DNA from: a virus
IMG/VR virus record: IMGVR_UViG_3300045988_174371
Location: 296,644-360,643 of that record
Reading direction: 5' to 3' (one strand)
Length of the DNA stretch: 64,000 nucleotides
Positions 1 to 64,000 of the stretch are shown here, in pieces. Position numbers and translations under genes: made by a program. Within the stretch, counting starts at the first letter, position 1; each line of letters opens with the position of its first letter. The notes under the pieces are model-generated. The model was not told the origin of the DNA, did no database searches, and saw nothing but the letters and a program-made list of their open reading frames with translations.

Positions 1-1471
1 TTTTCACCCCCTTAGAGATGCGGTTCTTCCTCTTAGGAGTAGAAGCATTCTTAGTCCTGTCGCGCCCTGGGTGCTTGAGGGATGCCCTAGCAACCGGAGT
101 CTTAAGAGCCGCCTGTGGCTGTAGTGCGCGGTTCTTAGCACGAGTCTTCCTCGCCTTCTCCACCTTCGGCACGGCGCGGGCGGCAATATTAGCGGCGGCA
201 TTAACATCCCTACCCATGTCACCATGCTTGGAGCAAACGGAAACCTTGTGAGTAGGATGAGTAATTTTCTCGCCGCACAGGTGGCAGACCTGCGACGTGT
301 TAGCCGCGTTCACTGACACAACCCAGCCGCCATTCTGCGTGACGTAGTGGGTGAGCCACTGGGTGAACGCGCCGCGATTCCAGCGCCCGTTCTGCATGGT
401 GTTGCTAATCCAACCAAGGTCTTCCACAGCCACAACCGCATTGCCGTAGAAGTGCGACAGGTAAGCAATTTCCTGCGCCGCAACAATCGCCAGCTCCCGT
501 TTCTTCCTAGAAGCGGCTTCACGATGAAGTTGAGCCTCATCAATCGCACACATGTGCGCCTGGCGGTCATAAAGAAGCTTGTCTGCTTTCTTGTTGAGCG
601 CTCGAACCTGACGCTCAGACGCTTTAATAGAGTTCCACAGGGAATGGACGCGCCGTGAGAGGGTGGTTTCATGAACCACACGCCCAGTGGTGGAGTTGCG
701 AACCACAACAGTAGCATAATCATTGATACCAACATCCACACCGACAACGTAATCACCTGAGAACTGCACGATAGGGTTATCAGTAACAATCGTGAAAATG
801 AAGATGGGGTGACCCTTTTCAACCTTGACCAGCGGCAAAGTCACTTTACCCTCAGTGAAACGCACGTTATCGAAATTAAAGATTAGCCGGCACCACTTGC
901 CCCAAATAATCATTTTCAAGATGATTTCACCATTAACAACAGGGTCATTCTCGATGACCGCGTACTGCTTATCTACCGCGCCAAGATTAATGTAGTCCTC
1001 GCCATACGACGGCGCAGAAGCGTTCACAGTGCGCTTCCAACCCTGCGAAACGTACTTACTGCTCTCGCCGCTTGCCGCCGCAATACGCTCCTGCCAGGCG
1101 CGATATTCCGTCACCACGCGATGCCTAAACAGGCGCTCCTTGCGGGACCTGCCCGTCTTGAGTTTGATAGGCTCACCATTCTTATCTGTGAGTGGATTGC
1201 CATCCTCGCCTTTTTTATCAGGCACCAGAAAATCAGGCATAGTGACACCAGCCTGGCGACCAACCTCAGCAGGCGCAGTAGCAGTAGCGGGCGACAGCTC
1301 AGCACCTAGCACCTCATCGTTACGGACAGTATAGGTTGCGTAAGCTGAAAGGTTACGAACCTCAGATGCAAGCTCAGCCATGATGAGCCTAGTATCAAGT
1401 ACCTCACCATCCAGGTCTAGGATGTGGGAAGGGCGCGCCACAAAAGCCCTATAGGTTTGGTTTCTTGCCAA
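1..1471 (-). CDS. tnpB: TnpB-like RNA-guided endonuclease (IS200/IS605-family accessory protein); C-terminus runs off the left edge of the window
   Basis: Own minus-strand translation; absent from the ORF track because no stop lies in the window. RuvC-like GVDVGIND and VAVEDL, zinc finger CHLCG...CSKHG, GRDVNAAANIA. AAGGAG lies 6 nt before TTG at 1471; the first ATG is at 1381. Confidence 0.8.
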   Translation of the reverse strand, partial: MARNQTYRAFVARPSHILDLDGEVLDTRLIMAELASEVRNLSAYATYTVRNDEVLGAELSPATATAPAEVGRQAGVTMPDFLVPDKKGEDGNPLTDKNGEPIKLKTGRSRKERLFRHRVVTEYRAWQERIAAASGESSKYVSQGWKRTVNASAPSYGEDYINLGAVDKQYAVIENDPVVNGEIILKMIIWGKWCRLIFNFDNVRFTEGKVTLPLVKVEKGHPIFIFTIVTDNPIVQFSGDYVVGVDVGINDYATVVVRNSTTGRVVHETTLSRRVHSLWNSIKASERQVRALNKKADKLLYDRQAHMCAIDEAQLHREAASRKKRELAIVAAQEIAYLSHFYGNAVVAVEDLGWISNTMQNGRWNRGAFTQWLTHYVTQNGGWVVSVNAANTSQVCHLCGEKITHPTHKVSVCSKHGDMGRDVNAAANIAARAVPKVEKARKTRAKNRALQPQAALKTPVARASLKHPGRDRTKNASTPKRKNRISKGVK

Positions 1472-8747: not shown

Positions 8748-8819
8748 AGCCGGTTGTCGGAATCGAACCGACGACTTGCAATTTACGAGATTGCCGCTCT
8801 ACCACTGAGCTAAACCGGC
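8748..8819 (-). tRNA. tRNA-Thr (anticodon CGT)
   Basis: Hand-folded cloverleaf: GCCGGTT..., anticodon loop CTCGTAA, T-loop GGTTCGATTCC. No encoded CCA. Confidence 0.85.
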
Positions 8820-56468: not shown

Positions 56469-57698
56469 CTAAAGACCCTTGCCGGTCAGCTCCTTAAAAA
56501 TAGCATCGGCAGTCTTCTTCGTATACATCAAGCTAGGAAGCTTCAGCGGCTCAACACGCTTACGATTAAAGCGAACAATCTTCACCATCTCAGCCTTATG
56601 CTTACGAAGCGCATCAACAACACGCTCCTCATCACCATTACCAGCCATAGTAATAAGCGGACGACTCAGACCATACATAGTAGTGGGCTTCTTGGCAGGG
56701 AACACCTCACGAGCACGCTTAACCCAATCAGTAGACGGCTCCACCTTATCACCCTCAGCACGAATCCAAGAGCGAATCATAGTGTACTGCTCAGCAGTAT
56801 ACAGCGGAGAGTTCTCCACACCCTTACGCCACGTAAAGTCATAAGTCAAAGAACGACCCGCCGCCTTCAACAGCGCCGCAATACGCGGACGAACATCAGC
56901 CGCCAAAAACGGAACAGGCTTACCACTCGGATACCCCAACTGTCGCGCACGCTCAGGCGACAAATACAGAGAACGACAAAGAAGCTCATTACTGTACACC
57001 ACAACAGGCTCATCCACAACAGTCCCCTCAAGCGAAGGCACTACAGAGAAATCAGCAGGCGGAACATCACTCTTAGGAGCCTCCAGCATAATCGAACGGA
57101 AACCCATAGGCTGAGACTCAACAAACTTGAAGAAACCCTCAAGCTCACCCTTCTCAATAACATTCTTAAAGCCAGGATGAGCCTCACGATACAGCGAAAC
57201 GAAACTACCAACCATAGACTCACCACCAAGCTTCTCATAATGAGAAGCAAGATAACCAATGCTGTAGAATACCTTCGGCTTCACCGGCGCATAAAAAATA
57301 CTCCGCCCAGTACCAAACAGGTAGCTCTCATCAACGCTATTAAGGTCAATGAAATGCTTCATAGCTCCAGTAGCACCCGTAACAACCTGAGCAGTGATAG
57401 GCGCACCCTCAATAATAACCGGACGCTCCTGCGAAGCATTGCGCGTCAAATGCGCAACCAAAGCAGGATTCAATGGACGCTGACTAGTAGACGCATAATG
57501 ATTAACATCAACAGTTGCATAGGTCTGCGTCGGATTAGCGACGGTATGAGGTAGACCCAAAAGCTCCTTATAATAGACAGGCAAGCCAACAAAGCTAGTA
57601 CCGTTATCCTGCGCTTCACGAGCGGCAACAATGCGTGCACGCACACCCGCATCCAGCGGAGTGGAAGTCGTTCGAGTAGCCTTAGTGTTGTTGTCCAT
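56469..57698 (-). CDS. hypothetical protein
   Basis: ATG at 57698 (MDNNTKATR) 9 nt after GAAGGA. The ORF-track start at 57770 would lie in a 5'-UTR hairpin (ctctctgc/gcagagag). Confidence 0.75.
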   Translation of the reverse strand: MDNNTKATRTTSTPLDAGVRARIVAAREAQDNGTSFVGLPVYYKELLGLPHTVANPTQTYATVDVNHYASTSQRPLNPALVAHLTRNASQERPVIIEGAPITAQVVTGATGAMKHFIDLNSVDESYLFGTGRSIFYAPVKPKVFYSIGYLASHYEKLGGESMVGSFVSLYREAHPGFKNVIEKGELEGFFKFVESQPMGFRSIMLEAPKSDVPPADFSVVPSLEGTVVDEPVVVYSNELLCRSLYLSPERARQLGYPSGKPVPFLAADVRPRIAALLKAAGRSLTYDFTWRKGVENSPLYTAEQYTMIRSWIRAEGDKVEPSTDWVKRAREVFPAKKPTTMYGLSRPLITMAGNGDEERVVDALRKHKAEMVKIVRFNRKRVEPLKLPSLMYTKKTADAIFKELTGKGL

Positions 57699-57781
57699 GT
57701 AAATAAATCCTTCGATAGAGATGGGTGGTAAGACGCTCTCTGCAACCAGCAGAGAGTCCATATACCGCATAATTTACTTAC

Positions 57782-57792
57782 AGTATATCACA
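57782..57792 (-). promoter_or_regulatory. extended -10 promoter TGTGATATACT
   Basis: About 85 nt upstream of the ATG at 57698. Confidence 0.5.
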
Positions 57793-57811
57793 TAATGCGG
57801 GAAATGCAAAT

Positions 57812-57843
57812 GCGGTACCCCTACAGATAAGTAGGGGTACCGC
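57812..57843 (-). terminator. hairpin gcggtacccctac/gtaggggtaccgc
   Basis: 13-bp stem closing the RNA island on its downstream (minus-sense) side. Confidence 0.6.
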
Positions 57844-57850
57844 AAAACAC

Positions 57851-57963
57851 CGCACATACACCGCCGCAACCCAGCTAGGCATTGGTAATGTCCTTTTATT
57901 TCAACCACCTCTCCCGTTTCTCACAGGCGAGGTGAGCACACACCCTATAGAGTGTGCGTTGCG
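57851..57963 (-). repeat. tRNA-trailer structured element, copy L (truncated)
   Basis: Starts right after tRNA-Leu(CAA): CGCAAC, H1 GCACAC..GTGTGC, H2 CACCTCGCCTGTGAGAAACGGGAGAGGTG, GAAATAAAAGG. Confidence 0.7.
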
Positions 57964-58043
57964 TGCGCCCGGTGGGACTCGAACCCACACTCCGAAGAAC
58001 CTGATTTTGAGTCAGGCGCGTCTGCCAATTCCGCCACAAGCGC
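57964..58043 (-). tRNA. tRNA-Leu (anticodon CAA), class II
   Basis: GCGCTTG..., anticodon loop CTCAAAA, long variable arm. Confidence 0.85.
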
Positions 58044-58111
58044 TAGGTTGAGGGGAAGGAGTGTAAGCCCCATACGAGAAGCCCTGTGCGCTCCCCTCAA
58101 CGTATAAAACA

Positions 58112-58122
58112 ATCGTACCACA
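58112..58122 (-). promoter_or_regulatory. extended -10 promoter TGTGGTACGAT followed by the hairpin at 58048-58100
   Basis: Promoter-then-hairpin-then-tRNA arrangement. Confidence 0.45.
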
Positions 58123-58183
58123 CAGTCTACGAATTTAAAAGCTCAGACGAGTGAGTGCCCTGTGATGCTCATCCCGCCCAGCT

Positions 58184-58679
58184 TTAATCCTTGTTCACCA
58201 TGAAGATTTTTCCGGTATTGCGCGGAGCCTCAATGATGATAGGCATGTAGTATACGCCTGACTCTGCATCGTAGGCGAAACGCCCGCCTTCAAATAGTGC
58301 GCCGCCAATGGTGAACTCATCACCATTACCTGTGAACGTACCGTCCTGCACGATAGACATGAACGCCGCACCCACCGAATTAACATCAGAAGAAAGCGAC
58401 TCCACCATCCTCACAAAAACGTCCTTAAATGCAGGAACAAGCGACACAAACGGGGCAGAGCCAACCTCACCCAACGGCTCCCCAAAACCAAACCCCAACT
58501 CAAGACCAACCCCACCATCAACACTCCACTGCAACCACCCCCGGCTCCCTCACAAAATGCCCAGTATCCACCAAATCAATATTACCCAAATCCTCCACAG
58601 GCGACACCACCGGCGAAACACCCACAGGAACAGGCGCAGAAGAAGCAGAAGCAGAGCCACGACCAGCAGAACCACGCAT
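58184..58679 (-). CDS. hypothetical protein, apparently split by a +1 frame change at a G5 run (58538-58542)
   Basis: MRGSAGRGSAS...VREPG (frame 1) continues as WLQWSVDGGVGLELG...MVNKD (ORF 58184..58534) if one G is removed. Confidence 0.4.
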
Positions 58680-58804
58680 AAACGACAACAACAAAACCTC
58701 CAAATAAAGAAAACCCCCACCACAAGCAACCAACAAAGGCAACAAGTAGCAGGGGAAAGGTAAAGCAAAAAAGAGCCTAGACAACCAAGCCAAGGGAAGG
58801 CATA

Positions 58805-59083
58805 AAAGGTAGCGCCTAGCAGAGCCCCCCACGTGTCCAGGGAAGGTGCTTCCCGGCTAGGGTAAACACCCCGAATACACATGAAGCGCCTTCGGTTTCC
58901 CACGCAGTTAGGCAAGTCAAAGGCTCTCTCTGCTGGCAACCAGCCAGCCAGCAGATGCCAGCCTTCATAGTCTTTACACCGCCGCCACTCAACCGAGCTT
59001 TAGCAATGTCCGTTTAGTTTAGAAACCTCTCCCAGTCTATCACAGGCGAGGCTGGTAACGCACCCCCAAAGGGGTGTGCTACG
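58805..59083 (-). repeat. tRNA-trailer structured element, copy B
   Basis: Follows tRNA-Arg(CCT): CGTAGC, H1 GCACACCCC..GGGGGTGCG, H2 AGCCTCGCCTGTGATAGACTGGGAGAGGTT. The tail shares AAGGCGCTTCAT and GGGTGTTTACCCTAG with copy A. Confidence 0.7.
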
Positions 59084-59156
59084 TGCCCTAGACAGGATTC
59101 GAACCTGTGACCCTCCGCTTAGGAGGCGGATGCTCTATCCACTGAGCTACTAGGGC
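59084..59156 (-). tRNA. tRNA-Arg (anticodon CCT)
   Basis: GCCCTAG..., anticodon loop CTCCTAA. Confidence 0.85.
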
Positions 59157-59310
59157 TAAAAGTTAGTCGCGAAACACATCAGAAGATGCCGTCTGCCCGC
59201 GCCTAACCTAAAGGCAAACATGTAACCTGCGCAACCTTGCTAAACTCAAAGCCTAAGAAATGCAGGAATGCCTGAGCTGACACAGCCAAGCCTCATCTGA
59301 AGACTTAGCG

Positions 59311-59385
59311 TGCCCCCTGTGGGGCTCGAACCCACGACCCACGGATTAAAAGTCCGTTGCTCTAAACCAACTGAGCTAAAGGGGC
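59311..59385 (-). tRNA. tRNA-Lys (anticodon TTT)
   Basis: GCCCCTT..., anticodon loop CTTTTAA. Confidence 0.85.
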
Positions 59386-59597
59386 GAAACATAAATAAAT
59401 GGACGAGAGTGCCCACAAACGGGGCACCCGCTTTGCACTATGGGCGGGTTGCCGATGACTAGAGCCACTACCCCATATAAGGGGAAGAGGCTTCCTGGTC
59501 TTGGAACCAACTGAAGGCAATCTCCGTTTATTTCGGTCACCTCTACCAGTCTATCACAGGCGAGGTGAGTAAAACACACTGCAAAGAGCGTGTTACG
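59386..59597 (-). repeat. tRNA-trailer structured element, copy D
   Basis: CGTAAC, H1, H2 CACCTCGCCTGTGATAGACTGGTAGAGGTG, GAAATAAACGG, TCCAAGACCAGGAAG. Confidence 0.7.
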
Positions 59598-59674
59598 TGC
59601 GCCCTGCGGGACTCGAACCCGCGACACTTGACCCACTTGGCTAAAGCAGGGCTCTACCACTGAGCTAAAGGCGC
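59598..59674 (-). tRNA. atypical tRNA-like gene: Lys-type acceptor, D and T arms, aberrant anticodon arm and a 10-nt variable region
   Basis: GCGCCTT TA GCTC AGTGGTA GAGC C CTGCT TTAGCCA AGTGG GTCAAGTGTC GCGGG TTCGAGT CCCGC AGGGCGC A. The best fold gives anticodon AGC with two G-U pairs; an alternative has a 9-nt loop. Confidence 0.5.
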
Positions 59675-59979
59675 TACCGCACCCTATGGAGCCAACCCAA
59701 GGGTGCACCCGAAGGCTCATGACAACCTCCAGGGAGACATCCGTGTGCATAGAAGCTACCCACCCCCCCGGCAGAGGCGCTACCTCTGCAAAGCCTATGG
59801 AATGGGGCTGATACAGCACAGATGAGCCAAGGCTTCAATCCTTGACAGCGACCATCCAGACAGCCGAAGCTACCCTTCCTGGTCTTGACACCACCTGAAA
59901 GTGATACCCGTTTAATTTAGCCACCTCTCCATCCTCTCAATAGGCGAGGTGAGCAACACACCGCAAAGAGTGCGTTACG
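59675..59979 (-). repeat. tRNA-trailer structured element, copy C
   Basis: CGTAAC, H1, H2 CACCTCGCCTATTGAGAGGATGGAGAGGTG, AAATTAAACGG, GGTGTCAAGACCAGGAAGG. The tail shares CCTTGGCTCATCT with copy A. Confidence 0.7.
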
Positions 59980-60065
59980 TGCGCCCGGTGGGACTCGAAC
60001 CCACACGCCCACAAGGGACAACGGAGCTTAAATCCGTCGCGTGCTACCAATTTCGCCACAAGCGC
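59980..60065 (-). tRNA. tRNA-Leu (anticodon TAA), class II
   Basis: GCGCTTG..., anticodon loop TTTAAGC, long variable arm. Confidence 0.85.
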
Positions 60066-60069
60066 GCAA

Positions 60070-60078
60070 AGTATACCA
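60070..60078 (-). promoter_or_regulatory. extended -10 promoter TGGTATACT ending 4 nt before tRNA-Leu(TAA) position 1
   Basis: Minus strand reads TGGTATACT-ttgc-GCGCTTG. Confidence 0.45.
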
Positions 60079-60221
60079 GTATAGCCAGCATAGTTTGGTT
60101 GTACCCCGTAGGAATGGGGTGAGAATTTAAGAAGCCCGAGGGACACCTCATCTATAGGCGTACCCTAAAGAGTCCCCCTATAAGGTTAAGCCCTCGAACC
60201 GGCTTTAAAATCGGCGCATTA

Positions 60222-60293
60222 GTGGGGCTCTGCCAATTGAGCTACCAACAGCTTTGTGAGGTGCTGGACGGGATTCGAACCCGCATCTCCCAC
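60222..60293 (-). ncRNA. circularly permuted tRNA-like module 2
   Basis: Order on the minus strand: GTGGG, AGAT, GCGGG-TTCGAAT-CCCGT, CCAGCA-loop-TGTTGG, TA, GCTC-AATTGGCA-GAGC, CCCAC. Flanks pair GGCGC/GCGCC. Confidence 0.65.
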
Positions 60294-60338
60294 CTAGCGC
60301 CGAGTAACACAGAATAAATGAACCTATCCTACGTTACG

Positions 60339-60411
60339 TGCCCTAGGCAGGATTTGAACCTGCGACTCTCCGCTTAGAAGGCGGTTGCTCTATCCGCTGA
60401 ACTACTAGGGC
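60339..60411 (-). tRNA. tRNA-Arg (anticodon TCT)
   Basis: GCCCTAG..., anticodon loop CTTCTAA. Confidence 0.85.
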
Positions 60412-60686
60412 TAAAAAGTTATGAAGGAACCATCTCCCGCATACGGGGAAGCCGCTTCATAACTAGGGTAAACACCCAGTCAGCATATGAAGCGCCTTTT
60501 GGTTCCCCAAGGCGGTTAGATGAGCCAAGGATTCGCCTTTGATGGTATCCCTCCGGCTGGCAAACGTCAGCCTTATTGGTCTTGACACCACCGCAACCCA
60601 GCTAGGCATTGGTAATGTCCATTTATTTCAACCACCCCTCCCGCCTCTCGCAGGTGAGGTGAGCGCGCGCCCGAAAGCGCACTATG
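60412..60686 (-). repeat. tRNA-trailer structured element, copy A (full length)
   Basis: H1 GTGCGC..GCGCGC, H2 CACCTCACCTGCGAGAGGCGGGAGGGGTG, GAAATAAATGG, GGTGTCAAGACCAATAAGG, hairpin GGCTGACGTTTGCCAGCC. The terminal hairpin plus TTTTTA abuts the next tRNA. Confidence 0.7.
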
Positions 60687-60758
60687 TATCCCCGACGGGA
60701 ATCGAACCCGCGCCTCCGCCTTGAAAGGGCGGTATCCTAGCCGTTAGACCACGGGGAC
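60687..60758 (-). tRNA. tRNA-Glu (anticodon TTC)
   Basis: GTCCCCG..., anticodon loop CTTTCAA, G1-U72. Confidence 0.8.
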
Positions 60759-60788
60759 GTATTGTGTGGTTCTACGGAAAGTAGAGCG

Positions 60789-60863
60789 TGCTCCCCGCAG
60801 GATTTGAACCTGCGACCCCGACGTTCGTAGCGTCGTACTCTATCCAGGCTGAGCTAGGGGAGC
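60789..60863 (-). tRNA. tRNA-Arg (anticodon ACG)
   Basis: GCTCCCC..., anticodon loop CTACGAA. Confidence 0.85.
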
Positions 60864-60865
60864 GG

Positions 60866-60937
60866 GGTGAGTGACGGGAATCGAACCCGCTAATACTTGC
60901 GCCACAAGCAAGCGCCGCACCGTTTGGCTTCACTCAC
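60866..60937 (-). tRNA. tRNA-His (anticodon GTG)
   Basis: GTGAGTG..., anticodon loop TTGTGGC, discriminator C. No G-1 encoded (T at -1). Confidence 0.8.
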
Positions 60938-60939
60938 AG

Positions 60940-61013
60940 TGCCCTTGGGTGGACTTGAACCACCGACCTCCGCTTTATCAGAGCGACGCGCTAACCAACT
61001 GCGCTACAAGGGC
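60940..61013 (-). tRNA. tRNA-Ile (anticodon GAT)
   Basis: GCCCTTG..., anticodon loop CTGATAA. Confidence 0.85.
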
Positions 61014-61025
61014 TAGAATAATAGA

Positions 61026-61034
61026 ATTGTAACA
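61026..61034 (-). promoter_or_regulatory. extended -10 promoter TGTTACAAT for the Ile-His-Arg-Glu tRNA block
   Basis: 12 nt upstream of the tRNA-Ile 5' end. Confidence 0.5.
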
Positions 61035-61216
61035 TAATGTCATATGTGTAAGGAAGATGGCATGGAGCCCCTAGATGTCTAACCACCCTAACAAAATGAA
61101 GACACCTAGTGAAGCCAACCTACATGCGTCGGAAAGCGAACTCCGAAGCCACCTACCCGTTTTCACTCTCTCATTTTCCATAGATGAGAGAAGGCGTAGC
61201 TAATAAAAGCTATGCG

Positions 61217-61292
61217 CGGTCTGTACGGGGCTCGAACCCGCGACCTCCGCCGTGACAGGGCGGCACTCTAACCAACACTGAGCTAACAGACC
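61217..61292 (-). tRNA. tRNA-Asp (anticodon GTC)
   Basis: GGTCTGT..., anticodon loop CTGTCAC. Confidence 0.85.
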
Positions 61293-61402
61293 ATGAGAGT
61301 GCCCCCGCTAAGAGACACTATACATCCTACAAGACAGCCGGGGAGCTACCCCTATGGAAGTGTGTAGGGCACTTCCCCTGTGTGCGGCTTAAACCGGCAC
61401 CA

Positions 61403-61473
61403 ACCAGACGCTCTAAACACTGAGCTACACGTGCAATGTGGCACATGACAGGATTTTAACCTGCGACCTTCTG
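61403..61473 (-). ncRNA. circularly permuted tRNA-like module 1
   Basis: CCAGA, AGGTC, GCAGG-TTAAAAT-CCTGT, CATGTGC-CACATT-GCACGTG, TA, GCTC-AGTGTTTA-GAGC, G, TCTGG. Flanks form the imperfect helix TTACGCCGG/CCGGTTTAA. Confidence 0.7.
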
Positions 61474-61527
61474 GATAGTATATATCCGGCGTAACACGAA
61501 AGGATTAGCTACACCCTCTCAAGCTAC

Positions 61528-61602
61528 GTGCGCCCTGTGGGGCTCGAACCCACGACCCACGGATTAAGAGTCCGTTGCTCTAACCATCTGAGCTAAAGGC
61601 GC
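61528..61602 (-). tRNA. tRNA-Lys (anticodon CTT)
   Basis: GCGCCTT..., anticodon loop CTCTTAA. Confidence 0.85.
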
Positions 61603-61639
61603 TTAACACACACCTGAACGCCTAAAACAGGTGTGTGCG

Positions 61640-61712
61640 TGGACGGTACGGGACTTGAACCCGTAACCTCCTGTGTGCAAAACAGGTGCTCTCCCAATTG
61701 AGCTAACCGCCC
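61640..61712 (-). tRNA. tRNA-Ala (anticodon TGC)
   Basis: GGGCGGT..., G3-U70 identity pair, anticodon loop TTTGCAC. Confidence 0.85.
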
Positions 61713-61764
61713 TAAACCTTGACAAAAGCCAAGAAATCCGTATCACCCATATAGGTAATACAAG

Positions 61765-61838
61765 CTCCCCCGGAAGGACTCGAACCTTCAACCTAGCGAT
61801 TAACAGTCGCTCGCATCTGCCAATTGAGCTACGAGGGA
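61765..61838 (-). tRNA. tRNA-Asn (anticodon GTT)
   Basis: TCCCTCG..., anticodon loop CTGTTAA. One extra T in the 3' strand of the D-stem. Confidence 0.75.
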
Positions 61839-61869
61839 ATACACCTCCCCAGTAGGGGAAGCTTAAGCC

Positions 61870-61900
61870 CGCCTGTGGGCTACCAATTTCGCCACAGGCG
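61870..61900 (-). ncRNA. tRNA-Leu-derived mini-helix (acceptor strand plus D-loop closed on itself)
   Basis: CGCCTGTGG-CGAAATTGGTAGC-CCACAGGCG. The loop matches the D-loop of the Leu tRNAs in this array. Confidence 0.4.
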
Positions 61901-61920
61901 ATTAAAACGTAAGTACGACA

Positions 61921-61929
61921 ATCATACCA
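61921..61929 (-). promoter_or_regulatory. extended -10 promoter TGGTATGAT for the Asn-Ala-Lys block
   Basis: Downstream of the terminator-like hairpin at 61961-61985. Confidence 0.45.
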
Positions 61930-61960
61930 CGCCAACACTCAATCTCGCAAAAGAATGAGT

Positions 61961-61985
61961 GATAAAAGCCAGAAGCCCGAAGGCT
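61961..61985 (-). terminator. AGCC-TTCG-GGCT hairpin followed by CTTTTAT
   Basis: Ends the transcript that carries permuted module 3. Confidence 0.45.
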
Positions 61986-62065
61986 CCCCTATTGCAATAA
62001 GGGTGCCCCAATAGGTTACCCTAATGAGGCTGAATCCTCGAACCGGACTCAACACCGGCACATCG

Positions 62066-62136
62066 GTGAGGCTCCGCCTATTGAGCTACCAGCGACTCAT
62101 TCGTCGCTGGGCGGGATTCGAACCCACACCTCTCAC
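62066..62136 (-). ncRNA. circularly permuted tRNA-like module 3
   Basis: GTGAG, AGGT, GTGGG-TTCGAAT-CCCGC, CCAGCGAC-GAATGA-GTCGCTGG, TA, GCTC-AATAGGCG-GAGC, C, CTCAC. Flanks pair TCCTCG/CGAGGA. Confidence 0.7.
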
Positions 62137-62194
62137 CTAGTACTACTTATACGACCGAGGAACATAAACACGTGTACATCATGCTTACGTTACG

Positions 62195-62274
62195 TGCTTC
62201 CGACCGGATTTGAACCGGCGCGCGGGCACTCTCATGCACCGCAAGCGCTCCCATAGCCGTTATGTGCAGAAGGC
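62195..62274 (-). tRNA. atypical tRNA-like gene, anticodon undetermined
   Basis: Canonical T arm GCCGG-TTCAAAT-CCGGT, acceptor CCTTCTG/CGGAAGC and a CGTAAC trailer. The central 45 nt does not fold into D and anticodon arms. Confidence 0.4.
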
Positions 62275-62346
62275 TCATGAAAGACGCTCCCCTTAACCTA
62301 GCTTGGATACGGAAGCGGGCACCCACATGCACTTGTGGACACCAAG

Positions 62347-62428
62347 TACGCCCGGTGGGACTCGAACCCACATGCCGTGAGGCACAGGAACCTAAATCCT
62401 GCGTGTCTGCCAGTTTCACCACGGGCGC
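62347..62428 (-). tRNA. tRNA-Leu (anticodon TAG), class II
   Basis: GCGCCCG..., anticodon loop TTTAGGT, G1-U72. Confidence 0.8.
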
Positions 62429-62481
62429 TTAACTATCTAACTACTAAATAGCTAACACAAAGAAAAATCTCTTTGCGCGAG

Positions 62482-62552
62482 AGGCGCACACGGGAATCGA
62501 ACCCGTGACAACTGCTTGGAAGGCAGAGGTTTTACCACTAAACTAGTGCGCC
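62482..62552 (-). tRNA. tRNA-Gly (anticodon TCC)
   Basis: GGCGCAC..., anticodon loop CTTCCAA. Confidence 0.85.
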
Positions 62553-62570
62553 AAGGTTATGACTACGACA

Positions 62571-62579
62571 ACTATATCA
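62571..62579 (-). promoter_or_regulatory. extended -10 promoter TGATATAGT
   Basis: About 20 nt upstream of the tRNA-Gly 5' end. Confidence 0.45.
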
Positions 62580-62627
62580 TAGGGTACGTAGAAGCTATAG
62601 CCGAACATATTACTTAGATGTGTTACG

Positions 62628-62711
62628 TGCCGCCGGAGGGATTTGAACCCCCAAAACCATAATGGTGACAGATTTACAGTCTGCTTCCTTCGCCAATAGG
62701 AGTGCAACGGC
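62628..62711 (-). tRNA. tRNA-Tyr (anticodon GTA), class II, copy 1
   Basis: GCCGTTG..., anticodon loop CTGTAAA, long variable arm. Confidence 0.85.
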
Positions 62712-62793
62712 TTATATTGAATAGTTTGTTCTATATGGTTATCAATGAGCTTTACGTCGGCGGCTTTTTCGAACCCCCGCGTCTTATATATCA

Positions 62794-62804
62794 AGTGTAC
62801 CACA
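62794..62804 (-). promoter_or_regulatory. extended -10 promoter TGTGGTACACT
   Basis: Consensus copy about 80 nt upstream of tRNA-Tyr copy 1. Confidence 0.5.
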
Positions 62805-62959
62805 TGTTTTTCGTGGTATGCAACTCGATATGGCGTTATCTGTGCCACAATGACTTCCCCGTGTGCATGAGAAAACCCTTGCCTATCTAGGGCAGACACC
62901 CTAATAGGGGACGAAAAACATTCGCAACGCTTTCCCTCACACGGATTGGTTCTGGCATT

Positions 62960-63099
62960 TTATCAGACGGTGACCCTCAAGCCAGCTACCTAACTATCCC
63001 GGTCTTGACATGTAACCGAAGCTACCCGACCGTTTATACTCGCTCCCGTCTCTCACAGGCGGGAGGTGCCCGCCTATTGAAAGAATAGGCGGGTTTACG
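62960..63099 (-). repeat. tRNA-trailer structured element, copy F
   Basis: Follows tRNA-Phe: CGTAAA, H1 CCCGCCTATTC..GAATAGGCGGG, CCTCCCGCCTGTGAGAGACGGGAG, TATAAACGG, ATGTCAAGACCGG. Confidence 0.65.
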
Positions 63100-63172
63100 T
63101 GTCCCCTGCCAGGCTTGCACTGGCGACCTCCTGCTCTTCAGGCAGGCGCTCTACTATCTGAGCTAAAGAGAC
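63100..63172 (-). tRNA. tRNA-Phe (anticodon GAA)
   Basis: GTCTCTT..., anticodon loop CTGAAGA, unusual T-loop TGCAAGC. Confidence 0.8.
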
Positions 63173-63201
63173 CCAACACCCCTACAAGAGGGCGTTTAAA
63201 G

Positions 63202-63276
63202 TGGTTCGTGAGGGATTTGAACCCCCGACCTCCGCCGTGTAAAGGCGTTGCTCTGACCAGACTGAGCTAACGAACC
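63202..63276 (-). tRNA. tRNA-Val (anticodon TAC)
   Basis: GGTTCGT..., anticodon loop TTTACAC. Confidence 0.85.
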
Positions 63277-63315
63277 TAAAAAGATGAATCCCCCGGCTGG
63301 ACTTCACACCAGCAA

Positions 63316-63470
63316 CCTGTGTGGGTGCGCTACCAATTACGCTACAAGACAGCCAGGTGCTTGTACAGGGCACGCTGGCATACTAAGGTCTTGACCGGAC
63401 TCGAACCGGCACCTCCCTGCCCATGTTTTTAAGCCAAACAGTCGTTCAGCTAATGACTTTACACCACAGG
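63316..63470 (-). ncRNA. expanded permuted tRNA-like module 4
   Basis: Outer helix CCTGTG(G)TG/CACACAGG encloses T arm GCCGG-TTCGAGT-CCGGT, acceptor CAAGAC...GTCTTG closed by a ~37-nt loop, and D arm GCGT-AATTGGTA-GCGC. Confidence 0.5.
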
Positions 63471-63509
63471 GGAGCACGCTAGAGAGTGTACAGCTCCCTA
63501 ACGGCTACG

Positions 63510-63597
63510 TGCGCATGGCAGGAGTTGCACCTGCTATCTGTCTTGCTTCGCCTCTACAGGACGGCTCAGGACTTACTACTTCGTCCACATCATGCAC
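63510..63597 (-). tRNA. atypical class-II-sized tRNA-like gene, anticodon undetermined
   Basis: Acceptor GTGCATG/CATGCGC, T arm GCAGG-TGCAACT-CCTGC, CGTAGC trailer. No canonical anticodon arm found in the central region. Confidence 0.4.
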
Positions 63598-63603
63598 TTT
63601 AAG

Positions 63604-63675
63604 CACCCATCGCCGGACTTGAACCAGCATCCTGCGGTTTTGGAGACCGCCCGCTTTACAATAAGCTAGATGGGC
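63604..63675 (-). tRNA. tRNA-Trp (anticodon CCA)
   Basis: GCCCATC..., anticodon loop CTCCAAA, G1-U72. Confidence 0.8.
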
Positions 63676-63910
63676 TTAGGGGAGCCGTGAGGCATCCCGC
63701 ATGTATGGGAGAGTTGCTACTGCGCCTCCCCCGTATGTGAGGTAGGTCAGGGATTCTCCTGACAGTGACCCTCCAGCTGGCAAACGTCAGCCTTCCTGGT
63801 CTTGACACCACCGCCGCCCAATCGGGGCTTGGCAATGTCCGCTTACTTCACCCACCTCGCCCAGCATCTCTACAGGCGAGGTGGCGACACACCGCTTGGG
63901 GTGTGTTGCG
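63676..63910 (-). repeat. tRNA-trailer structured element, copy E
   Basis: CGCAAC, H1 ACACCCC..GGTGTGT, H2 perfect 10 bp CCACCTCGCC/GGCGAGGTGG, GGTGTCAAGACCAGGAAGG, GGCTGACGTTTGCCAGC. Confidence 0.7.
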
Positions 63911-63994
63911 TGCCGCCGGAGGGATTTGAACCCCCAAAACCATAATGGTGACAGATTTACAGTCTGCTTCCTTCGCCAATAGGAGTGCAACGGC
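63911..63994 (-). tRNA. tRNA-Tyr (anticodon GTA), copy 2
   Basis: Identical by eye to 62628-62711, including 6 nt of 5' leader. Confidence 0.85.
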
Positions 63995-64000
63995 TTATAT

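What the first reader, a model, noticed from the sequence alone, without database searches (positions are those of the whole stretch)
57851..63910. Seven copies of a structured 100-300 nt element that always begins at a tRNA 3' end
Copies lie at 57851-57963, 58805-59083, 59386-59597, 59675-59979, 60412-60686, 62960-63099 and 63676-63910. Each starts immediately after a discriminator base and has the same parts in order.
- CG[TC]A[AG]C.
- Hairpin H1, whose sequence differs between copies while pairing is kept: GCACAC/GTGTGC, GTGCGC/GCGCGC, GCACACCCC/GGGGGTGCG, CCCGCCTATTC/GAATAGGCGGG.
- Hairpin H2 with a conserved core CACCTCGCCTGTGA.A.AC...GAGGTG. Its first pair covaries C-G to A-T in copy B, and the stem is a perfect 10 bp in copy E.
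- A conserved single-stranded stretch GAAAT[AT]AA[ACT]GG.
- A variable hairpin, then GGTGTCAAGACCAGGAAGG.
- In the long copies, further hairpins (GGCTGACGTTTGCCAGCC; GGGTGTTTACCC) and a final hairpin plus TTTTTA abutting the next tRNA.
- Identity between copies looks like only about 60-70 percent by eye, so conservation of structure rather than sequence argues for function. Candidates are a processing signal, a protein-binding RNA or a ribozyme.
- I could not fit hammerhead or HDV-like (theta-type) consensus folds.
Basis: seen in the sequence. Interest (0 to 1): 0.8.

Follow-up and report, generated by a model that had tools for sequence, protein, structure and literature searches.

The report
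Cas12n guide-RNA scaffolds fused to tRNAs
The seven structured elements are real, but they are copies of the guide-RNA scaffold (tracrRNA-like part) of a miniature CRISPR nuclease, Cas12n, joined directly to the 3' ends of tRNA genes in a human oral jumbo phage; I found no published report of that arrangement.

Summary
Seven copies lie on the minus strand, each starting one base after a tRNA discriminator, and covariation supports their hairpins.

They are not a new ribozyme. A model built only from phage copies finds the tracrRNA of Rothia Cas12n loci (E about 1e-8). The conserved parts map nucleotide by nucleotide onto the cryo-EM RdCas12n sgRNA:
- H2 is stem 1.
- UAAACGG is the triplex strand.
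- The variable hairpin is stem 2.
- GUCAAGACC holds the A-minor adenines.
- Stems 3 and 4, an anti-repeat and a repeat in cis follow.

In sister jumbo phages the same element sits at the stop codon of a cas12n gene (56% identical to RdCas12n). There it precedes mini CRISPR arrays of 25-nt repeats and 33-38-nt spacers.

Across five phage genomes, 33 of 45 copies start exactly at a tRNA 3' end. Release by tRNA processing is inferred, not shown.

In this phage no cas12n lies in the window or in the 3.7 kb beyond it. Three copies are truncated. The four intact ones have at most 14 nt (F undetermined) where a guide should be, so their present activity is uncertain.

The RNA class is known. The multicopy, tRNA-fused arrangement appears to be new.

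The parts
57858..57963 (-). Copy A, after tRNA-Leu(CAA) 57964-58043. Truncated scaffold: H1 57936-57957, stem 1 57906-57934, triplex strand 57892-57902, stem 2 57858-57891. Nothing beyond stem 2.
   Evidence: R1 hit 57844-57963, 109.1 bits. No R2 hit. Coordinates.
57812..57843 (-). Strong terminator-like hairpin (14 bp, then TTTGCATTT) that closes the tRNA/scaffold array. The promoter-like site of the next gene follows at 57782-57810.
58819..59083 (-). Copy B, after tRNA-Arg(CCU) 59084-59156. The 5' core is intact. The J3/4 and stem 4 region is replaced or deleted. Degenerate cis repeat at 58819-58844. A terminator-like hairpin follows at 58774-58791.
   Evidence: R1 58962-59083, 111.8 bits. 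R2 only 35.1 bits at 58910-58977..
59401..59597 (-). Copy C, after tRNA-Ala(AGC) 59598-59674. The 5' core is joined directly to repeat 59461-59486, so stems 3 and 4 and the anti-repeat are missing. Then a 33-nt spacer 59428-59460 and a second degenerate repeat 59401-59427. 15 nt later comes tRNA-Lys(UUU).
   Evidence: R1 59490-59597, 98.9 bits. No R2 hit..
59688..59979 (-). Copy D, after tRNA-Leu(UAA) 59980-60065. Full-length scaffold with degenerate repeats at 59733-59754 and 59688-59710. 13 nt later comes tRNA-Ala(AGC).
   Evidence: R1 59874-59979, 97.1 bits. R2 59820-59889, 67.6 bits..
60426..60686 (-). Copy E, after tRNA-Glu(UUC) 60687-60758. Full-length scaffold:
- H1 60665-60682
- stem 1 60633-60661
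- triplex strand 60619-60629
- stem 2 60585-60618
- junction CAAGACC 60572-60584
- stem 3 60556-60571
- J3/4 60541-60554
- stem 4 60525-60540
- anti-repeat 60503-60524
- linker with two hairpins 60451-60502
- cis repeat 60426-60450
A 14-nt tail 60412-60425 then abuts tRNA-Arg(UCU).
   Evidence: R1 116.4 bits. R2 60518-60586, 57 bits. The MFE fold pairs the anti-repeat with the repeat. Coordinates.
62849..63099 (-). Copy F, after tRNA-Phe(GAA) 63100-63172. Full-length scaffold, more diverged, with a degenerate cis repeat at 62849-62874. A promoter-like box 62794-62823 follows, ahead of tRNA-Tyr 62628-62711.
   Evidence: R1 62994-63099, 56.9 bits. R2 62944-63009, 65.1 bits..
63681..63910 (-). 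Copy G, after tRNA-Tyr(GUA) 63911-63994. Full-length scaffold with anti-repeat 63725-63746 and cis repeat 63681-63713. 5 nt later comes tRNA-Trp 63604-63675.
   Evidence: R1 63791-63910, 115.4 bits. R2 63740-63806, 69.2 bits..

Best explanation
Each element is a copy of the guide-RNA scaffold of a phage-borne type V-N CRISPR nuclease, Cas12n. It is the tracrRNA-like part, joined in cis to a first CRISPR repeat, which makes it a natural single-guide or omega-RNA-like molecule.

- H2 is stem 1. Its loop (GAG) forms the pseudoknot with the last bases of the repeat (CUC).
- UAAACGG is the strand that forms a triple helix with stem 1.
- The variable hairpin is the dispensable stem 2.
- GUCAAGACC carries the adenines that dock on stem 1.
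- The 'further hairpins' are stems 3 and 4.
- The final hairpin region is the anti-repeat paired with the repeat (stem 5).

Shown by computation: homology, fold, and genomic association in sister phages.

Inferred:
- The scaffolds are transcribed with the tRNA operon.
- Cleavage at the tRNA 3' end (RNase Z or equivalent) makes the scaffold 5' end. RNase P at the next tRNA cuts the 3' side.
- The released RNAs load Cas12n, either with the spacer that follows the repeat or by pairing with crRNAs made elsewhere.

In this particular phage the partner gene is absent from the window and from the syntenic place. Three copies are truncated. The four intact ones carry at most 14 nt after their last repeat (5-14 nt before the next tRNA in D, E and G; undetermined for F). 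Part of the set is therefore probably decaying, or can serve only as a tracrRNA supply.
For: 1. Association with cas12n.
- In the sister phage IMGVR_UViG_3300045988_174689 a copy starts at the stop codon of a 520-aa gene, and another copy lies upstream of it.
- That protein has the Pfam domains HTH_OrfB_IS605, OrfB_IS605 and Cas12f1-like_TNB.
- It matches PDB 9J09, RdCas12n, at E 1.8e-171 with 56% identity. The RuvC D, E and D residues are among the invariant columns.

2. Homology of the RNA.
- Model R2 was built from 33 phage copies only. It hits the tracrRNA region directly downstream of cas12n in Rothia aeria (40.9 bits, E 1.7e-8) and in a Rothia dentocariosa-type contig (40.2 bits, E 2.5e-8).
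- It hits nothing in 19 other TnpB-encoding viral loci.
- With -194 set at L035:3198, nearly all nucleotides named in Fu et al. fall on the matching bases and on the phage's conserved motifs (three, -173, -172 and -107, do not): -194C, -181A, -178U, -170G, -168A, -163G, -162G, -158A, -152A, -148G, -99A, -98A, -95C, -94C, -91C, -76G, -72G, -71U, -69A, -67C, -57U, -54U, -52A, -12A, -5G, -4U, -2C.

3. Structure.
- Stems 3 and 4 on a MAFFT alignment that includes Rothia: 93% of cells paired, slid controls 15-49%, 0 of 500 shuffles.
- H1, stem 1 and stem 2: 90.2% paired.
- The pseudoknot pair is GAG:CUC in phages and GAA:UUC in Rothia.
- Anti-repeat and cis-repeat duplexes are more stable than shuffles in 26 copies (mean z -2.2), with compensating changes such as GAAGAA:UUCUUC.

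4. CRISPR arrays.
- In sister phages each scaffold is followed by 1-4 repeats with 33-38-nt spacers, period about 61.
- Rothia has the same period and a related repeat.

5. Fusion to tRNAs.
- 33 of 45 copies in five phage genomes start at offset 0 from a tRNA 3' end. Fifteen different isoacceptors are involved.
- No strong terminator-like hairpin was predicted within the array between copy B and the window end (terminator-like hits did not exceed the shuffle expectation).
Against: - No cas12n in the window or in the 3.7 kb beyond its end (tblastn, E up to 1, no hit). The rest of the 360,715-bp contig could not be read.
- In the window, D, E and G have only 5-14 nt between the last repeat and the next tRNA. 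A, B and C are truncated.
- No transcript or processing data exist. The tRNA-processing step is pure inference.
- No protospacer was found for any clear spacer.
- R1, the 5' half, matches Rothia only weakly (12-14 bits).
Confidence: 0.8

Rival explanations
1. Relics. The copies in this phage are non-functional leftovers of a Cas12n system that this lineage has lost. They persist only because the loss is recent and because they sit in the spacers of an essential tRNA operon.
For: - cas12n is missing at the syntenic site. The sister phage's segment L006:9554-12643 is replaced here by a single scaffold copy.
- A, B and C are truncated or internally deleted.
- The repeats of the window copies are degenerate: none lies within 7 mismatches of the consensus inside the window.
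- There are almost no spacers.
- Truncated cas12n genes exist in related phages (P0038, P0068).
Against: - D, E, F and G keep every conserved motif and helix. They score 57-69 bits with R2 and up to 116 bits with R1.
- The cis anti-repeat:repeat pairing is kept.
- cas12n could lie elsewhere in the 360-kb genome.
Confidence: 0.3
2. Mobile, guide-RNA-only elements. Scaffold-plus-repeat units spread by TnpB-like homing. The RNA uses the DNA that flanks its 3' end as guide. The AAC at its 5' junction (CGTAAC) is the PAM of the empty site. A co-infecting genome that lacks the unit is therefore cut and then repaired from the unit-bearing copy.
For: - Presence or absence of units differs between phages that are 95% identical. 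For example, Lys-CUU and Arg-ACG carry a unit in the sister phage but not here.
- Units are dispersed between genes in more distant phage lineages.
- The published RdCas12n PAM is 5'-AAC, and CGYAAC precedes most units.
- Cas12n derives from TnpB.
Against: - No empty site was found in which AAC is followed by the matching flank.
- The differences between the arrays are larger rearrangements, not clean insertions.
- CGTAA is also simply the Ala-stop end of cas12n.
- No Y1 transposase was seen. The neighbouring recombinase is a resolvase/invertase type.
Confidence: 0.1
3. RNA decoys. Guide-less scaffolds soak up the Cas12n of the bacterial host (Rothia-like), in the manner of RNA anti-CRISPRs.
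For: - This phage keeps nine or more scaffolds but no nearby cas12n and almost no guides.
- Oral Rothia species encode Cas12n.
- The motifs GUCAAGACC, GGGUCACCGU and UAAACGG are identical in phage and Rothia scaffolds.
Against: - The scaffolds are orthologous to those of sister phages that have their own cas12n and real spacers.
- The repeat and anti-repeat differ from those of Rothia.
- The host is not established.
Confidence: 0.07
4. One reading: a self-cleaving ribozyme or a dedicated tRNA 3'-processing signal.
For: - Exact placement after the discriminator.
- A precedent exists in the theta (HDV-like) ribozymes that lie downstream of phage tRNAs (PMC10879173).
Against: - No ribozyme family matches, even at E up to 10.
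- The fold is that of a solved, non-catalytic guide RNA.
- 12 of 45 copies have no tRNA upstream.
Confidence: 0.03

Closest known systems
Cas12n (type V-N, formerly V-U4) tracrRNA:crRNA / sgRNA. RdCas12n structure PDB 9J09/9UDI (Fu et al., Nat Commun 2025, PMC12216341). System first described by Chen et al., Mol Cell 2023, which I could not read here.
   Same: - Same helices in the same order: stems 1 to 5, pseudoknot and triplex strand.
- The same conserved motifs.
- Starts at the 3' end of cas12n.
- Followed by repeats with a 61-nt period.
- The partner protein is 56% identical.
   Different: - The phage version is present in 9-13 or more copies per genome instead of one.
- Most copies are fused to tRNA 3' ends.
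- It carries an extra 5' hairpin (H1), and its scaffold follows the stop codon rather than overlapping the ORF.
- The anti-repeat is joined in cis to a first repeat through a 50-nt linker with hairpins.
- Each copy heads its own array of zero to a few spacers.
- In this window no cas12n is nearby.
TnpB omega-RNA (reRNA) of IS200/IS605 elements, for example ISDra2
   Same: - A single RNA with the scaffold 5' and the guide 3'.
- It starts at the 3' end of the nuclease gene.
- It has a pseudoknotted core shared with Cas12n and Cas12f, as stated in PMC12216341.
   Different: - Here the scaffold ends in a CRISPR-type repeat that is reiterated with spacers.
- No IS ends and no TnpA were found.
- The protein belongs to the Cas12n clade. 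Its match to ISDra2 TnpB is only E 2e-35, over the C-terminal half.
Engineered polycistronic tRNA-gRNA (PTG) arrays for multiplex genome editing (from my own knowledge: Xie, Minkenberg and Yang, PNAS 2015)
   Same: tRNAs alternate with guide RNAs on one transcript, so that RNase P and RNase Z would release each guide.
   Different: PTG is man-made and uses Cas9 sgRNAs with the guide at the 5' end. Here the arrangement is natural, the guide would be at the 3' end, and processing is untested.
Theta (minimal HDV-like) ribozymes downstream of phage tRNAs (PMC10879173)
   Same: A structured RNA immediately 3' of phage tRNA genes.
   Different: Different fold. No match to HDV-type or any other ribozyme model. 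The present element is homologous to a guide RNA.

Membership tests
Cas12n (type V-N) guide-RNA scaffold (tracrRNA/sgRNA) | Sequence and structure homology to the experimentally solved RdCas12n sgRNA scaffold: stems 1-4, triplex strand, junction adenines. | tested here: met
   - The phage-only model R2 hits two Rothia cas12n loci at 40-41 bits, E about 2e-8. There are no hits in 19 control loci.
- Nearly all nucleotide identities named in the paper fall on the same motifs; three (-173, -172, -107) do not.
- Covariation was counted on an alignment that includes Rothia.
Cas12n (type V-N) guide-RNA scaffold (tracrRNA/sgRNA) | Pseudoknot between the stem 1 loop and the 3' end of the repeat. | tested here: met
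   - The loop is GAGAG in 33 of 44 phage copies, with the repeat ending in CUC plus one base.
- Rothia has GAA with UUC.
- Window copy C has GAU with GUC.
- There are few independent changes, so support is modest.
Cas12n (type V-N) guide-RNA scaffold (tracrRNA/sgRNA) | An anti-repeat complementary to the CRISPR repeat (stem 5), with a CRISPR array downstream. | tested here: met
   - Duplex energies against shuffles in 26 copies give mean z -2.2.
- The MFE fold of copy E forms the stem.
- Sister phages have arrays with 33-38-nt spacers.
- In the window the repeats are degenerate, and only C has a clear spacer.
Cas12n (type V-N) guide-RNA scaffold (tracrRNA/sgRNA) | Encoded next to a cas12n gene. 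| tested here: not met
   - Met in four sister phage genomes, where a copy lies at the stop codon and another upstream.
- Not met for the window: there is no cas12n in 64 kb plus 3.7 kb. The rest of the contig was not readable.
- The window copies are therefore filed as homologues of the family, not as parts of a demonstrated complete system.
Cas12n (type V-N) guide-RNA scaffold (tracrRNA/sgRNA) | Binds Cas12n and directs PAM-dependent DNA cleavage. | not testable with these tools
   One indirect hint only. A spacer of phage L031 matches tRNA-Glu of the window phage, with a 5' AAC flank.
Self-cleaving ribozymes placed after tRNAs (HDV-like/theta, hammerhead, twister, hatchet, pistol) | Match to the family's covariance model or consensus fold. 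| tested here: not met
   An Rfam 15 scan at E up to 10 over 57500-64000 lists only Twister-sister, at 20.1 bits (gathering score 34, E 1.2).
Natural tRNA-guide RNA polycistron (works like PTG arrays) | Co-transcription, with RNase Z/P cleavage at the tRNA borders releasing the guide RNA. | not testable with these tools
   - Supported only by geometry. 33 of 45 copies start at offset 0 from a tRNA 3' end.
- All tRNAs lack an encoded CCA.
- No strong terminator-like hairpin was predicted within the array between copy B and the window end (terminator-like hits did not exceed the shuffle expectation).

The most novel reading that the evidence does not exclude
A family of human oral jumbo phages matures its CRISPR guide RNAs with the cell's tRNA-processing enzymes.
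- Dozens of natural tRNA-sgRNA junctions form a native counterpart of engineered tRNA-gRNA arrays.
- Each scaffold-repeat-spacer unit is a self-contained, omega-RNA-like guide gene that can be shuffled, gained or lost by recombination.
- The system would then be a living intermediate between single omega-RNAs of TnpB and tracrRNA plus CRISPR array.
- The units might themselves spread by Cas12n-mediated homing at AAC-flanked tRNA trailers.
Probability: 0.35. Interest if true: 0.8.

Novelty: new variant of a known kind. Interest (0 to 1): 0.6.

Why it matters
Cas12n is regarded as the Cas12 closest to its TnpB ancestor. How a single omega-RNA became a separate tracrRNA plus a CRISPR array is an open question.

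These phages show a state in between. Each of many scaffold copies is joined in cis to its own first repeat and heads a tiny array.

The exact fusion of the scaffolds to tRNA 3' ends suggests that guide-RNA ends can be set by RNase Z and RNase P. That would be a natural precedent for a trick used in genome engineering.

It also marks Cas12n as a weapon of human oral jumbo phages. At least 35 related proteins sit on contigs of 140-380 kb.

For this window the practical lesson is narrower. The 'unknown structured RNA' is explained, and Rfam lacks a model for it.

Tried and rejected
RNA families.
- Rfam at gathering score, and at E up to 10, gave only tRNAs, weak YrlA-like hits and chance-level matches.
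- I tried by eye to fit HDV-like and hatchet folds, and an integron attC-like reading (R'' RYYYAAC against CGTAAC). I dropped these because the internal sequence is far too conserved and no P1-type long-range pairing is kept between copies.

Relatives of the window.
- Megablast of the region against INPHARED phages found only tRNA-sized matches.

Search for cas12n.
- tblastn of the phage Cas12n against the window and L027 gave no hit.
- The first contig look-up failed because the ORF start was wrong. It worked with the start at 57698.

Search for targets.
- Forty spacers from five phages against INPHARED: no match.
- Three spacers scanned in IMG/VR: only self or none.
- Spacers against all loci held: only tRNA-like matches and self or syntenic matches.

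Other points.
- The sigma-70 and terminator scan was not above chance overall.
- Chen et al. 2023, the first description of Cas12n, is not in the library.
- Four literature searches found no report of tRNA-fused Cas12n scaffolds. This is not proof that none exists.
- The neighbouring serine recombinase is a resolvase type, with the catalytic domain first and HTH_7 last. It is not an IS607-type TnpA.

Full report
**1. The observation**

ARAGORN and Rfam place all tRNA genes of 57.9-64.0 kb on the minus strand.

- A strict motif pattern (stem 1 plus the AANTAANNGG stretch) matches five times in the window, against 0.00 expected from shuffles.
- A covariance model built from the seven copies (R1) finds exactly these seven in 64 kb, at 57-116 bits.
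- Mean identity between copies is 64%.

Four corrections apply.

- The 3' limits are approximate. F extends to about 62849.
- A stops after the third hairpin. B and C have internal deletions.
- All 27 tRNA trailers of the window start with C, and none encodes CCA. CGYARC-like starts also follow tRNAs without an element.
- Two more copies lie just outside the window without any tRNA upstream.

**2. Relatives**

The pattern hit a single IMG/VR contig, IMGVR_UViG_3300045988_174689 (306,861 bp). It is about 95% identical to the window in its genes, but its tRNA array is rearranged.

That contig carries 16 copies. Several do not follow a tRNA. One lies behind a sigma-70-like promoter. One starts at the stop codon of an ORF that ends ...DRDLNAAINI.

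Loci L004 and L003 proved to be contiguous and encode a 520-aa protein (seen again as L006).

- It has the Pfam domains HTH_OrfB_IS605, OrfB_IS605 and Cas12f1-like_TNB.
- It matches PDB 9J09/9UDI at E 1.8e-171 over its whole length, with 56% identity.
- 9J09 is RdCas12n, the type V-N effector of Rothia dentocariosa. It was solved with a 214-nt sgRNA made of a 170-nt tracrRNA, a GAAA loop and a 40-nt crRNA. The PAM is 5'-AAC (PMC12216341).

**3. The element is the Cas12n scaffold**

The order is: a hairpin, UGAGGGUCACCGUC, a second hairpin, CCCAYC, a variable linker, and then the unit UCCCCGUACACGCGGGGAUGGCUCC.

In the sister phages this last unit is repeated one to four times, with 33-38-nt spacers and a period of about 61. 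These are mini CRISPR arrays.

The chromosome of Rothia aeria (L026) and a Rothia dentocariosa-type contig (L035) have the same layout once. The cas12n gene comes first. A scaffold with the same motifs follows: CUCGCCUCAGAAxAUGGGGAGAG, UCUAAACGG, GUCAAGACCA, GAGGGUCACCGU, CCCAUC. Then come 9-10 repeats of 29 nt with a period of 61.

With -194 set at L035:3198, nearly every nucleotide that Fu et al. name by number and base is found at its place; three (-173, -172, -107) are not. That fixes the mapping.

|---|---|
| H2 | stem 1 (-178 to -158) |
| Loop of H2 | pseudoknot partner (-170 to -168) of repeat positions -4 to -2 |
| GAAAUAAACGG | triplex strand (-152 to -148) |
| variable hairpin | stem 2 |
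| GUCAAGACC | holds A-99 and A-98 |
| further hairpins | stems 3 and 4 |
| last hairpin region | anti-repeat:repeat, stem 5 |

H1 has no ordered counterpart. In Rothia that stretch lies inside the ORF and is disordered in the structure.

As a formal test I built model R2 from 33 phage copies only, covering the junction to the start of the anti-repeat.

- It finds the two Rothia scaffolds at 40.9 and 40.2 bits (E about 2e-8).
- It finds nothing in 19 other TnpB-encoding viral loci.
- It finds D, E, F and G, and weakly B, in the window.
- R1, the 5' half, matches Rothia only weakly (12-14 bits), but at the right place.

**4. Structure support**

- On 44 phage copies aligned to R1, H1, stem 1 and stem 2 are 90.2% paired. 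20 of 27 pairs change on both sides, 0 of 500 shuffles reach this, and slid controls give 39-61%. This alignment is fitted to the model, which favours it.
- On a plain MAFFT alignment of 35 sequences including Rothia, stems 3 and 4 are 93% paired. Slid controls give 15-49%, and 12 of 17 pairs change on both sides.
- The pseudoknot is GAG:CUC in phages and GAA:UUC in Rothia.
- The anti-repeat pairs with the copy's own first repeat better than with shuffled repeats (26 copies, mean z -2.2). There are matched changes such as GAAGAA:UUCUUC.
- The MFE fold of copy E forms this stem.

**5. The tRNA connection**

The window is an exact part of ENA contig ERZ989713 k127_64826, a human oral metagenome contig of 360,715 bp.

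I collected loci from three further phages whose Cas12n is 82-86% identical. Across the five genomes R1 gave 45 hits:

- 33 start at offset 0 from a tRNA 3' end, after 15 different isoacceptors;
- 4 start at the cas12n stop codon;
- 8 lie elsewhere.

Chromosomal Rothia-type loci have no tRNA nearby.

Two more distant phage-like contigs (L036 of 160 kb, L038 of 290 kb) have five to six scaffold and mini-array units scattered between protein genes, without tRNAs. Multicopy, dispersed units are therefore a phage trait. The tRNA fusion is a trait of the lineage that includes the window.

The array in the window has no strong predicted terminator between copy B and the window end; copy B itself is followed by a terminator-like hairpin (58774-58791). 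Co-transcription, and release of the scaffold by cleavage at the tRNA borders, is the natural inference. Nothing here shows it.

**6. State of the system in this phage**

- No cas12n is found in the window or in the 3.7 kb beyond its end.
- The sister phage has scaffold, cas12n, scaffold, arrays, tRNA-Lys and scaffold at L006:9554-12643. This phage has one scaffold copy in that place (L027:3204), downstream of a resolvase-type recombinase.
- A, B and C are defective.
- D, E, F and G are complete scaffolds with a cis repeat. Only 13, 14 and 5 nt follow the last repeat before the next tRNA in D, E and G.
- Only C has a clear 33-nt spacer.

The copies are therefore either relics of a recently lost system, or a supply of tracrRNA for an effector and arrays encoded elsewhere in the 360-kb genome, or, less likely, decoys. 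I could not read the rest of the contig.

**7. Targets**

Spacers from the sister phages match nothing in INPHARED or IMG/VR apart from themselves.

One spacer of phage L031 matches tRNA-Glu of the window phage (60716-60742), and the protospacer is preceded by AAC. Another is a tRNA-Arg(CCU) fragment without that flank. These may be real anti-phage spacers or 5'-truncated tRNA pseudogenes.

**8. Verdict**

The RNA belongs to a described class, the Cas12n tracrRNA/sgRNA scaffold, which Rfam does not yet hold.

What I found no report of is the arrangement (Chen et al. 2023 could not be read). It has three features:

- many scaffold copies per genome;
- each copy joined in cis to a repeat and heading a tiny array;
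- most copies fused precisely to tRNA 3' ends.

I rate this a new variant of a known kind, with moderate to good interest. The interest is tempered by the absence of the effector gene and of usable guides in this window.

Noticed in passing
window 60211-60303, 61388-61492, 62067-62135 (minus strand): Sub-threshold Rfam matches to YrlA (Y RNA-like): 41, 30 and 33 bits against a gathering score of 69. By eye they are permuted tRNA-like modules inside inter-tRNA spacers: T arm and 3' acceptor strand first, then 5' acceptor strand and D arm, closed by a stem.
   Followed up: no
window, all 27 tRNA genes (for example 8748-8819 ... 63911-63994): Every tRNA is followed by C and none encodes CCA. Eleven trailers start CGT or CGC whether or not a scaffold follows.
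   Followed up: partly
window 62628-62711 and 63911-63994 (minus strand): Two identical 84-nt tRNA-Tyr(GUA)-type genes are found by Rfam (40.6 bits) but missed by ARAGORN. One is followed by scaffold G. The other is followed only by CGTAACACATC, which resembles the first bases of G, as if the scaffold had been deleted.
   Followed up: partly
window 5-1471 (minus strand, runs off the window start): This encodes a homologue (69% identity) of a second, very distant TnpB/Cas12-like protein of 550 aa. Pfam finds only Cas12f1-like_TNB. The best PDB matches are Cas12m and TnpB, at E 1e-6 to 1e-5. In sister phages this gene lies next to the last scaffold of the tRNA array, in either orientation.
   Followed up: partly
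L027:2430-3143 (555 nt beyond the window end, same contig): A serine recombinase of resolvase/invertase type (Resolvase plus HTH_7) lies directly upstream of the scaffold/tRNA array. In the sister phage it lies directly upstream of the scaffold-cas12n unit.
   Followed up: no
window 62794-62823 (minus strand); also L006 about 12000 and 12650: A recurrent promoter-like box, TTGCATACCACGAAAAACATGTGGTACACT, sits at the end of mini-arrays just before tRNA-Tyr. It suggests internal promoters in the array.
   Followed up: no
L031:16257-16290 against window 60716-60742: A spacer of a sister phage matches tRNA-Glu(UUC) of the window phage over 27 nt with one gap, and AAC (the RdCas12n PAM) precedes the protospacer. 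That phage's own tRNA-Glu genes differ at this site.
   Followed up: partly
L036 (160-kb contig) and L038 (290-kb contig): More distant phage-like contigs, with Cas12n 54-62% identical, carry five to six scaffold and mini-array units scattered in intergenic regions. Some lie behind TGnTACACT-type promoters. There are no tRNAs nearby.
   Followed up: partly
L027:1557-1860 and L006:7882-8175: One promoter-driven scaffold-repeat unit runs straight into the ribosome-binding site and start codon of the next gene. Its 'guide' position is therefore the 5' UTR of an mRNA. This is conserved in both phages.
   Followed up: no
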